DNA of 59,170 nucleotides, filler included, from Parachlamydiales bacterium (GCA_020051075.1; 3 parts of 3 records of this genome joined end to end with filler, not necessarily neighbours in it), one strand, 5' to 3'. Counted from the whole stretch's first letter, positions 871 to 3,233 are shown. The notes: generated from the sequence alone by a model not told the origin. Numbers and translations: made by a program.

Positions 871-1611
871 TCATCCTGTAAAATTACCAGGATGGGAATT
901 AGCAAATTTTTTACGGGTATGATAAGTGTCGTAAATGATCGTCAGTGATTTAATTTTCACATTCTGAGGGGAAAGCTCAAACAGATCAACACACTCAAAT
1001 TGGACGACAGCATCGTCTTTCATTCTCCACGTATAAACGAAATGGGCTGCAACACAATGCGGGTTATCATGACTTGAGAATATTGTCTTTAATTCTATTT
1101 TAGAACTCTTCGTGTCTGAGAAAAGTTGCCGATAAAATTTAATCGCTTCAACTTCTCCATAAAGCGGAGAATGAACAACGGCATCATGAGTAAACTGCTT
1201 GACCACCTCTTCATAATTTCCTTTTTCCAGAGCATGCAAATAGGCCTTGACAACCTCTTGTTGATGAGGTGATCCATCCACCTCATCGCATTTGGCGGCT
1301 AAAACAAAATCGCTTTCGGAGAGCCCGTCGATTTTATGTGTCCAGAGTTGGATTTTCACTTTCCCATAAGAGAGAAGCACGTCAGGATGATGCCCCTCTT
1401 CTTCAGCAATTGCGCCCACTTTATTCGTAAAAATTAAGGCTTGGCGAAAGTCTGGGAAACGATATTCCTTTTCCAAGTGATGTTCATCAACGACAGTCCA
1501 GCCATTGCCCAACTGCTTGTGCAGTTCTGCCAATTCTTGTCCTTTGAGCGGGGGAATGTCCTTATGACAAGGGACGCATTTCTTCGTTGAAAGCTTACAA
1601 TGTGAGTCCAT
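871..1611 (-). CDS. phhB: pterin-4-alpha-carbinolamine dehydratase (PhhB-like) fused to a C-terminal SnoaL/NTF2-like domain
   Basis: The N-terminal ~110 aa contain CVPC, F.DF.QAL.F.NKVG.IAEEEGHHPDV and WTHKIDGLSESDFVLAAKCD (PCD). The C-terminal half has VKAYL.ALEKGN...FT.DAVV.SP and VDLFEL...KI..L (SnoaL-like). Confidence 0.85.
   Translation of the reverse strand: MDSHCKLSTKKCVPCHKDIPPLKGQELAELHKQLGNGWTVVDEHHLEKEYRFPDFRQALIFTNKVGAIAEEEGHHPDVLLSYGKVKIQLWTHKIDGLSESDFVLAAKCDEVDGSPHQQEVVKAYLHALEKGNYEEVVKQFTHDAVVHSPLYGEVEAIKFYRQLFSDTKSSKIELKTIFSSHDNPHCVAAHFVYTWRMKDDAVVQFECVDLFELSPQNVKIKSLTIIYDTYHTRKKFANSHPGNFTG
872..897. repeat. short palindromic repeat CATCCTGTAAAATT(G)ACAGGATG (copy 1, supplies the 3' end of the PCD gene)
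   Basis: Near-identical copies at about 5583-5610 and 57296-57325. Confidence 0.6.
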
Positions 1612-1618
1612 AAAATCC

Positions 1619-2323
1619 TTAATTGTTACTCGTTTCTAATGATAAATTTGGGAGCTGGGACAGCGTTTCCGCCCCATCCCATCTCCTCCGAATGAAAAAT
1701 ACACAAAAATAAAAAAGAGGGGTACAAATTAAACTAAAAAAAGCTTTATAGGCGAAGGAGAAGAGCATGATCGGATAGACGCTGTTCATCTCCATCCCGA
1801 GTCCCCAGTACAAGAACATCATATCAATGATGACCGTATCGATCATCTGTGAAATACACGTCGAACCGTTATTTCGCAACCAAAGAAAGCGGTCAGGAGT
1901 CCATCGTTTGATCCATGCGTAAATCTGGATATCAGCGATTTGACCGAAGAGATATGCAGTGAGTGAAGAAAAAATCCTTAATCCGCTTAATCCAAGCACG
2001 AGTTGAAACGGACTGTTAGCTTCAGGCTTCTCTGCAGGCAGCATTAACGCTAATTGAATGATGATAAAACTCAACACACTCATCCAAAGTCCGATGTAAA
2101 CTATCAGCTTCGCTTTTTTTTGTCCGAAAATCTCTGTCACAAGACCGCTTAAGAGGAATGTGAGAGGGTAGATTATTAAACCTGCCGGAATGCTGAAGTC
2201 AACATGAGGCAGCGAAACCATTTTTGCAGAAATGATGTTAGAAATGACAACAATAACGCAAAAAGCTGCGCTGATGCTCTGATAGAGGGTTTGAGAAGTC
2301 ATCGACCCACTGTTAAGTTTCAT
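1619..2323 (-). CDS. yhhQ: YhhQ / VUT-family (COG1738, queuosine-precursor transporter family) membrane protein
   Basis: SNIISAKMV, PAGLIIYPLTFLL..LVTEIFG, SSLTAYLFGQ..D, LWLRNNGST.ISQMIDT; about 6 TM segments. Its start overlaps the phhA stop. Confidence 0.88.
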   Translation of the reverse strand: MKLNSGSMTSQTLYQSISAAFCVIVVISNIISAKMVSLPHVDFSIPAGLIIYPLTFLLSGLVTEIFGQKKAKLIVYIGLWMSVLSFIIIQLALMLPAEKPEANSPFQLVLGLSGLRIFSSLTAYLFGQIADIQIYAWIKRWTPDRFLWLRNNGSTCISQMIDTVIIDMMFLYWGLGMEMNSVYPIMLFSFAYKAFFSLICTPLFYFCVFFIRRRWDGAETLSQLPNLSLETSNN

Positions 2324-3233
2324 CTTCCACCTCTAAAAATGCTTGCAATTCCTCTTCATTGACTCCTGGTTCGCCCGGATTAACATGATCCAACTTCCCC
2401 TCGTGCAGCCACTGTTCCAGCCGGTCCACTTCTTCATAGAGGTGTTCAAATGAATCAATCACAAATAAAAGAGATTGAAAGTGATCAATTTCAAAAGATT
2501 GATTGATCACCCACTCAAGCTGAAACGGGTATCTTTGAACCTGCAAAGATTCAACAGAATGTTCAATTTCCTCAGCGGAGCTTAGAAGACCGCTTCCGTA
2601 AACACATATCCGCCCCCCTTCACGCATCAACCCAAATTCAATGCTAAACCAGAAAAAGCGGGATAGCGCTTGGATATTGCTTCGGATTTTAGCCATTTTT
2701 TCTTTTCCATTCACCAGATGGGTATGCCGTTTTGCAGCTTTGTTTGCAAGCGATCCAAATCTAACAAGCACATCGGCAAATGTCAGATCCGTGTGCATGG
2801 GGACATGTCCAGCAATGTCGTGAAAGATATCAGGCTCAGGCAGATATGCAAGCCTATTGCGGTCTCGTATTGTAATTGTTGTTGGAAACTCGCGGCGTTT
2901 TAAACTATCAAAAAACAGGTATGTCGGAACATAGCCGCTGACAGCTTTTGCCTTGAAACCTGTTAATGGGGCTAAAAAAGCGTTTACCTCCTCCAGTCGA
3001 GGAATGCGGTCAGGGTTCAAACAGAGAGACTGAATCCCTTCCATGAATTTCCCATTGGCGTATTTTTCCCACTTGGGACGCAACAGTCCATACAGCTCCC
3101 TCCACGCTTCTTGGTTGTTCTCGCTGTACAGTTCGTAGGGCTGATGAATGAATAATTGCCCGTGAAATTGAGCATTTTCAATAAATGGGGCTTTTGTTGT
3201 CGTCAAATCATGAAATATTTCAGGATGTTCCAT
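2313..3233 (-). CDS. phhA: phenylalanine 4-hydroxylase (biopterin-dependent aromatic amino acid hydroxylase)
   Basis: YLPEPDIFHDIAGHVPM iron-binding His pair, FWFSIEFGL and YGSGLLSS. Start placed at ATG 3233 behind a GGTGA SD. Confidence 0.93.
   Translation of the reverse strand: MEHPEIFHDLTTTKAPFIENAQFHGQLFIHQPYELYSENNQEAWRELYGLLRPKWEKYANGKFMEGIQSLCLNPDRIPRLEEVNAFLAPLTGFKAKAVSGYVPTYLFFDSLKRREFPTTITIRDRNRLAYLPEPDIFHDIAGHVPMHTDLTFADVLVRFGSLANKAAKRHTHLVNGKEKMAKIRSNIQALSRFFWFSIEFGLMREGGRICVYGSGLLSSAEEIEHSVESLQVQRYPFQLEWVINQSFEIDHFQSLLFVIDSFEHLYEEVDRLEQWLHEGKLDHVNPGEPGVNEEELQAFLEVEDET

What the first reader, a model, noticed from the sequence alone, without database searches (positions are those of the whole stretch)
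871..3233. phhA-yhhQ-phhB operon: a 'queuosine precursor' transporter possibly repurposed to import pterin cofactor
Seen in sequence: a YhhQ/VUT-family gene sits between phhA (11-bp overlap) and the pterin-recycling dehydratase (7-bp gap). No tgt/que genes or pterin biosynthesis genes are nearby. As I recall the family consensus (FL.tD...E.yG), the acidic residue is replaced here by Gly (FLLSGLVTEIFG). Established: PhhA needs a tetrahydropterin, PCD recycles it, and YhhQ proteins import 7-deazaguanines, which share the 2-amino-4-oxo-pyrimidine ring with pterins. Inference: this paralog scavenges host or environmental (bio)pterin so that an intracellular bacterium can make Tyr from Phe. That would be a new substrate class for the VUT family.
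Basis: partly seen in the sequence, partly recalled or inferred. Interest (0 to 1): 0.78.

Follow-up and report, generated by a model that had tools for sequence, protein, structure and literature searches.

The report
Candidate pterin importer in chlamydiae
In chlamydial bacteria, a second copy of a transporter known only for tRNA-modification (queuosine) precursors sits right behind a pterin-dependent enzyme gene and likely imports pterin cofactor from the host cell, which would fill a known gap in how bacteria take up pterins.

Summary
The operon is real: phhA, a QPTR/YhhQ (Vut_1) gene, and a PCD gene fused to a SnoaL-like domain. The linkage is not unique to this genome. In 400 Chlamydiota genomes, all 39 with phhA carry a clade-B QPTR (53 of 361 others do), and in 32 it lies directly behind phhA. 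26 of those 32 also keep a distant clade-A QPTR beside a queuine-type tgt, and queA was found in 0 of 20 tested, so the phhA-linked copy has no evident queuosine job there. 21 linked genomes lack folE; 15 of 17 Chlamydia-like ones also lack trpF, its known substitute, yet keep folP. Relatives sit beside PCD alone or in folate operons. Best reading: a pterin importer (about 0.6, untested). Against: this genome has no other QPTR, a full de novo queuosine pathway, folE and a pteridine-reductase-like gene; the phhA linkage probably arose once; 22 of 57 core-clade members have no pterin neighbour. The Asp-to-Gly change is real but private, not a clade signature. No paper making this link was found in the held library.

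The parts
2313..3233 (-). phhA, pterin-dependent aromatic amino acid (phenylalanine) hydroxylase, 306 aa; iron-ligand motifs PDIFHDIAGHVP (134) and WFSIEFG (195)
   Evidence: (NF008877 291.8 bits, cut-off 247)
1619..2323 (-). QPTR/YhhQ (Vut_1, COG1738) clade-B membrane protein, 234 aa (227 from second Met); predicted ECF S-component fold; candidate pterin importer
2144..2146 (-). codon 60 (GGT, Gly) where the family mostly has Asp or Asn; private to this lineage
871..1611 (-). phhB: pterin-4a-carbinolamine dehydratase (about 1279-1551; EEEGHHP motif) fused to a SnoaL/NTF2-like domain (about 973-1251), 246 aa

Best explanation
The middle gene encodes a clade-B QPTR with a predicted ECF S-component fold that likely imports a host-made pterin (reduced biopterin- or neopterin-type) to supply the phenylalanine hydroxylase encoded directly upstream. 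Shown: gene order and spacing, family membership, separate tgt-linked and phhA-linked clades, co-occurrence, and which synthesis genes were found. From established knowledge: PhhA consumes a tetrahydropterin per turnover and PCD dehydrates the 4a-carbinolamine. Inferred: phenylalanine enters through TyrP-family carriers (4 in this genome); PhhA makes tyrosine for a cell with no tyrA, pheA or hmgA match, so the use is anabolic; the QPTR works as a solitary S-component, reads the 2-amino-4-oxo-pyrimidine edge shared by pterins and 7-deazaguanines with the polar residues common to both clades (N29, K/R34, E64, S120, Q128, Q159, D162, K193), and brings pterin in; PCD and the pteridine-reductase-like SDR on C79 recycle it. 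In folE-less relatives import would be the only known source, and in Chlamydia-like genomes lacking folE and trpF it could also feed folate synthesis. In this genome, which has folE, import would be a supplement, and side activity on preQ0/preQ1 is not excluded.
For: 39 of 39 phhA genomes carry clade B versus 53 of 361 without phhA; adjacent in 32 of 39, in families f1, f3, f4, f9 and at a contig edge in f14. Genus g15: 17 of 22 genomes have phhA and all 17 have the adjacent second QPTR; the other 5 have one QPTR. 26 of 32 linked genomes also have a clade-A QPTR within two ORFs of a queuine-type tgt (DEL and GGS-x-G motifs); queA found in 0 of 20 of these tested. folE not found in 23 of 39 phhA genomes, 21 of which keep an intact adjacent QPTR, against 10 of 16 with folE; G248, G306, G309, G254 lack folE and folP. 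trpF in 2 of 17 g15 genomes with clade B and 4 of 5 without; folP in all 17. Other pterin contexts: QPTR-PCD without phhA in 5 genomes and 3 metagenome contigs; end of folate operons in G079 and G303; folA-folC2-QPTR in G061, G200, G338; PCD-QPTR in reversed order in two non-chlamydial-looking contigs from another branch, L252 and L260; divergent from folK in 38 of 72 distant loci; no tgt/queA/C/D/F hit in 80 of 80 metagenome loci. Model pLDDT 89; best fold matches RibU Z 14.9 (rmsd 3.1, 169 aligned), BioY, ThiT, PanT, FolT. dN 0.23-0.28 with saturated dS.
Against: No transport data. This genome has one QPTR, a preQ1-type tgt, queA, queC, D, E, F, G and folE, the E. coli situation in which YhhQ salvages preQ0/preQ1, plus Nudix-FolB and an SDR with TGxxxRLG, so it may make its own cofactor. 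The phhA linkage probably arose once and moved as a cassette, so counts across kin are not independent. 22 of 57 core-clade rows have no pterin neighbour; 53 genomes have clade B without phhA. No residue cleanly marks the linked proteins. The linked copy is truncated in G123 and gone in G124, G224, G278, G286, G349. G006 lacks trpF, folE and clade B yet has folP; G289 lacks folE and has only a basal clade-B copy. Many metagenome contigs are short and the folK-linked ones are probably one lineage in divergent orientation. A shared fold shows no substrate.
Confidence: 0.6

Rival explanations
1. It is an ordinary queuosine-precursor importer (preQ0/preQ1 here, queuine elsewhere) that became attached to phhA once and has travelled with it.
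For: Passes TIGR00697; only QPTR in a genome with preQ1-type tgt and queA; conserved polar residues are shared with clade A; basal clade-B copies beside PAP2-lexA occur in queA-positive genomes; all three tested family members carry deazaguanines (PMC11570991 passages); one probable origin of linkage.
Against: 26 of 32 linked genomes already have a tgt-linked QPTR, and 0 of 20 tested have queA, so a preQ importer would be useless and a second queuine importer redundant; in g15 the copy is present exactly when phhA is (17 of 17, 0 of 5); no que gene beside any clade-B locus examined.
Confidence: 0.22
2. It imports another vitamin or precursor: intact folate, or a biotin precursor for the bioB-F-D-A genes that follow it in Chlamydia-like genomes.
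For: bioB lies 1-3 genes downstream in the g15 loci long enough to show it, and bioDA lies near QPTR-PCD in G106; fold matches BioY, FolT, RibU; folA-folC2-QPTR in G061, G200, G338 looks like folate salvage.
Against: No bio gene beside the environmental phhA-QPTR loci examined; in this genome the bio operon is on another contig; phhA is the constant neighbour and a Ulp1-family gene and an SDR often intervene before bioB; the folA-folC2 group falls outside the core clade.
Confidence: 0.09
3. It carries the hydroxylase's amino-acid substrate or product (Phe, Tyr, Trp), or exports spent oxidised pterin rather than importing reduced pterin.
For: The genome lacks pheA and tyrA matches, so Phe must be imported; g15 genomes lack PCD over cut-off (0 of 16) and would accumulate spent pterin.
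Against: Four TyrP-family transporters are present; S-component folds are high-affinity importers of vitamins (established knowledge); association with PCD alone and with folate operons is not explained by amino-acid transport.
Confidence: 0.09

Closest known systems
QPTR/YhhQ (COG1738, PF02592, TIGR00697): E. coli YhhQ (preQ0/preQ1), C. trachomatis YhhQ (queuine), B. henselae QPTR (preQ1 > q)
   Same: Family member by profile score; conserved N29, S120, Q128, D131, D162, K193; no ECF ATPase genes adjacent.
   Different: About 20% identical to E. coli YhhQ and 22-23% to the clade-A proteins compared; separate clade; neighbours are phhA, PCD or folate genes, never tgt/que in the loci examined. 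That the tested C. trachomatis protein is clade A is inferred from the single QPTR of the phhA-less g15 genomes; its accession was not fetched.
Solitary and group II ECF S-components (RibU, BioY, ThiT, PanT, FolT, BtuM)
   Same: Predicted six-helix fold, Z 10-15 over about 165 residues.
   Different: No sequence match to any PDB chain; 5-17% identity; substrate not given by fold.
phhAB operons (Pseudomonas type) and the Chlamydia aromatic amino acid hydroxylase
   Same: phhA plus PCD; intact iron-ligand motifs.
   Different: A QPTR lies between them; no hmgA match, so not catabolic; PCD is fused to a SnoaL-like domain. Pseudomonas uses FolX/FolM-made monapterin (recalled); no FolX match here.
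Leishmania pterin salvage (pteridine reductase PTR1, PMC1971073 passage; biopterin transporter BT1 of the FBT family, recalled)
   Same: Works like it: import of host pterin, reduction, use by aromatic hydroxylases and folate synthesis.
   Different: Unrelated transporter family and fold; bacterial.

Membership tests
QPTR/YhhQ (COG1738) | Profile match over curated cut-off (PF02592, TIGR00697) | tested here: met
   142 bits vs 27.2; 155 vs 50.95
QPTR/YhhQ (COG1738) | Six-helix integral membrane S-component-like fold | tested here: met
   model pLDDT 89.3; RibU Z 14.9, rmsd 3.1, 169 aligned
QPTR/YhhQ (COG1738) | Clustering with tgt/que genes | tested here: not met
   neighbours are phhA and PCD; tgt on C11 follows an RNA methyltransferase-like gene
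QPTR/YhhQ (COG1738) | Imports preQ0, preQ1 or queuine | not testable with these tools
   needs complementation or uptake assay
E. coli-type YhhQ (NF008406) | Score over equivalog cut-off | tested here: not met
   41 bits vs 252; 20% identity
Chlamydial queuine importer (clade A) | Falls in the tgt-linked clade | tested here: not met
   clade A has SH-aLRT 100 and excludes the window protein
Pterin importer (proposed) | Conserved linkage and co-occurrence with pterin-using genes, kept where synthesis is missing | tested here: met
   39 of 39 co-occurrence; 32 of 39 adjacent; 21 of 23 without folE
Pterin importer (proposed) | Specificity residues distinct from deazaguanine importers | tested here: inconclusive
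   no clean diagnostic column; Gly60 private; D/N167 enriched (37 of 37 linked vs S89% in clade A) but N also in basal clade B
Pterin importer (proposed) | Binds or transports a pterin | not testable with these tools
   no ligand-partner prediction or assay available
Phenylalanine 4-monooxygenase | Profile match and His-His-Glu iron ligands | tested here: met
   NF008877 over cut-off; motifs at 134 and 195; TIGR01267 below its cut-off
PCD (PhhB) | Pterin_4a domain with HHP motif | tested here: met
   PF01329 104.6 bits; EEEGHHP; NCBIfam equivalogs below cut-off

The most novel reading that the evidence does not exclude
A large branch of the QPTR/Vut_1 family, annotated as queuosine precursor transporters, are bacterial pterin importers. 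The phhA-linked copy lets chlamydiae take biopterin or neopterin from the host, supplying the hydroxylase and the pterin ring of folate in Chlamydia species that lack both FolE and TrpF, with parallel PCD- and folK-linked versions in other phyla.
Probability: 0.4. Interest if true: 0.88.

Novelty: new variant of a known kind. Interest (0 to 1): 0.74.

Why it matters
A 2026 review states it is unknown how pterins cross the bacterial membrane (PMC13259868, passage). [quoted passage not shown] This names one gene as the candidate importer, testable in E. coli, would add a substrate class to the QPTR family, flag a likely mis-annotation, and describe a host metabolite that intracellular bacteria may draw on.

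Tried and rejected
Gly60 as a specificity switch: rejected; whether Gly60 is shared by sister strains stays open (not among the rows shown). Second yhhQ near tgt in this genome: none. The search for related loci on genome contigs with the single protein gave 1 locus, so no genome-level survey outside Chlamydiota was possible; the metagenome contigs L219, L222, L225, L252, L260 could not be searched for phhA. PDB sequence search: 0 hits; Foldseek alone gave no E under 0.001; the wide structural search was not obtained. Promoter/terminator scan at chance level (7 vs 5.3; 5 vs 2.6). No RNA holder listed. The SDR beside the QPTR in some g15 loci as pteridine reductase: lacks the Arg of TGxxxRxG, best hits generic; not supported. 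FolE2: 0 of 5 genomes tested. Accelerated decay of this copy: not seen. Fisher tests (p 7e-29; 2e-17 without g15; 0.045 for folE) are descriptive only, kin are not independent. Both QPTR trees and the PhhA tree are quick searches with SH-aLRT only. G005 was not scored in any survey; 22 weak Vut_1 matches were unlisted. Yuan 2019 and Abromaitis 2009 were not held and are known only from citing passages. Literature searches found no paper linking QPTR to pterins; 'pterin' occurs 0 times in PMC11570991 and PMC11130926 main texts; their supplements and those of PMC5372724 were not read and may list neighbourhoods.

Full report
OBSERVATION. Pfam and NCBIfam confirm the families. The last gene is PCD fused to a SnoaL-like domain; 7 of 120 listed homologs are full-length fusions and a related strain in run X2 covers all 30 bins of the operon. 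G089 has the same overlap and gap. The organism shares a family with G133, whose locus is titled Parachlamydiaceae.

TWO QPTR CLADES. Vut_1 occurs in 139 of 150 sampled Chlamydiota genomes. A tree of 104 copies (quick search) separates clade A (56 rows, SH-aLRT 100), almost all just upstream of tgt, from clade B (44 rows, 95), which holds the window protein; 4 rows fall in neither. The TGTs beside clade A carry DEL and GGS-x-G where the preQ1-type enzymes have DEC and GGLSVG; PMC12301720 (passages) ties Gly and Leu at these sites to queuine use. Four of the five phhA-less genomes of genus g15 were in the tree and their single QPTR is clade A; the fifth (G018) has it beside tgt. I infer that g15 is Chlamydia (1.0-1.3 Mb, trpF pattern) and that the tested C. 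trachomatis queuine importer (PMC11570991, PMC11130926 passages) is clade A. The window protein is 22-23% identical to the two clade-A proteins compared and 20% to E. coli YhhQ.

LINKAGE TO phhA. In 400 genomes, clade B (profile A1, E at most 1e-40) is in 92 and phhA in 39; all 39 have clade B, against 53 of the other 361. QPTR follows phhA directly in 32 of 39, counting G123 (truncated QPTR), G366 (contig edge) and G319 (phhA fragment); 4 have phhA-PCD only and 3 phhA alone, two of these with a divergent PhhA lineage. In g15 the second QPTR is present in 17 of 17 genomes with phhA and 0 of 5 without. In a second tree (113 rows; 6 linked g15 rows, most clade-A rows and the G123 fragment left out) all phhA-adjacent copies fall in one core clade of 57 rows (96): 25 phhA-adjacent, 8 beside PCD without phhA, 2 closing folate operons, 22 with no pterin neighbour. 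The PhhA tree (32 of 39) mixes families and scatters the losses, consistent with one origin and cassette transfer; the counts are therefore not independent events.

NO QUEUOSINE JOB IN MOST HOLDERS. 26 of the 32 linked genomes also have a clade-A QPTR within two ORFs of tgt, and queA was found in 0 of the 20 of them tested.

PTERIN NEED. folE was not found in 23 of the 39 phhA genomes; 21 keep an intact adjacent QPTR, G224 has a core-clade copy elsewhere, G289 has a divergent PhhA. Of 16 with folE, 10 keep it. G248, G306, G309 and G254 (91-94% complete) lack folE and folP. All 17 linked g15 genomes have folP, none folE, none of those tested PCD over cut-off, and only 2 have trpF; 4 of the 5 unlinked have trpF. 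Adams 2014 (passages and Discussion) shows TrpF substitutes for FolE and names three species lacking trpF without resolving their pterin source. G006 is an exception (folP, no folE, trpF or clade B).

OTHER LINEAGES. Of 80 metagenome loci (best of 555 confirmed), 8 are close (49-66%): 1 phhA-QPTR-PCD, 3 QPTR-PCD. Among 72 distant loci, 38 lie divergently from a folK fusion, 2 have PCD directly upstream (L252, L260; another branch, reversed order), 1 has folB near; none of the 80 had a tgt, queA, queC, queD or queF hit. Many contigs are short. Two earlier AI notes describe YhhQ genes in pterin or folate operons elsewhere; they are leads, not support.

THIS GENOME. It weakens the local case: one QPTR, preQ1-type tgt, queA, C (two), D, E, F, G, folE, folP, a weak folK match, Nudix-FolB and an SDR whose best NCBIfam hits are pteridine reductases, below cut-off on a partial sequence. 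It has no tyrA, pheA or hmgA match and 4 TyrP homologs (99.9% complete, 5.7% contaminated), so PhhA most likely makes tyrosine for protein synthesis from imported Phe. The QPTR is under purifying selection and not much faster than its orthologs.

RESIDUES AND FOLD. Gly60 is real but private. Polar residues conserved in both clades fit recognition of the ring edge that pterins and deazaguanines share (inference). The model (pLDDT 89.3) matches ECF S-components, best RibU Z 14.9, with 20 S-component-type entries above the unrelated rows. Zallot 2017 (part 2 of 5 read) says the family is heterogeneous but proposes only deazaguanines or other purines in that part.

VERDICT. A QPTR by family, not an ortholog of the tested queuosine-precursor importers, and most likely a pterin importer (0.6); queuosine-precursor import 0.22, another vitamin 0.09, amino acid or export 0.09. 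No paper with this link appeared in searches; two primary papers were not held and no supplements were read. A 2026 review calls pterin membrane passage unknown, which makes the E. coli tests worthwhile. New variant of a known kind; interest 0.74.

Noticed in passing
window 871-1611 (-): PCD fused to a SnoaL/NTF2-like domain; 7 full-length homologs at 59-68% identity; role of the extra domain unknown (could bind a pterin or aromatic ligand).
   Followed up: partly
G000:C79:34897-37852 (L216): DUF6580 membrane protein, Nudix-FolB fusion, an inserted small gene pair on the other strand, then a pteridine-reductase-like SDR: a possible home-made tetrahydropterin module with its own uncharacterised membrane protein.
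   Followed up: partly
L135 (G123), L136 (G124): Stepwise loss of the QPTR between phhA and PCD in a sister genus (152-aa truncation; 140-bp gap), while an intact paralog sits behind an FMN reductase gene elsewhere.
   Followed up: partly
L080, L086 (genus g15): phhA-QPTR precedes bioB-F-D-A; in many genomes a Ulp1/C48-family gene and an SDR with an N-terminal hydrophobic segment intervene; no PCD in these genomes.
   Followed up: partly
Chlamydiota split into two queuosine strategies: preQ1-type tgt, mostly with queA, or queuine-type tgt with clade-A QPTR; G093, G106, G048 have a third TGT motif (GGLAD) without queA.
   Followed up: partly
L379-L384: A third, short (167-189 aa) E. coli-like QPTR type in G234, G319, G377, G052, G127, G278 (tandem in G278), with no que neighbours.
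   Followed up: no
L198:4980-7063 (G075): queD/PTPS-folE-(membrane domain+PCD fusion) operon without phhA; similar PTPS-PCD cluster in G023 (L209).
   Followed up: no
L271 and 37 similar loci: FolK fused to a nucleoside/nucleotide kinase domain, divergent from a QPTR (Flavobacteria-like by recall).
   Followed up: partly
window 4673-5494 (-): 273-aa ORF joining a Hen1 N-terminal region to the last 113 positions of the Pnkp ligase domain: looks like an internally deleted Hen1-Pnkp RNA repair locus.
   Followed up: no
window 6823-7101: About 270-bp repeat with many 86-96% copies across the genome, at contig ends.
   Followed up: no
P0140-P0238: Many PCD proteins fused to a glutaredoxin-like domain (PF00462/PF05768).
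   Followed up: no
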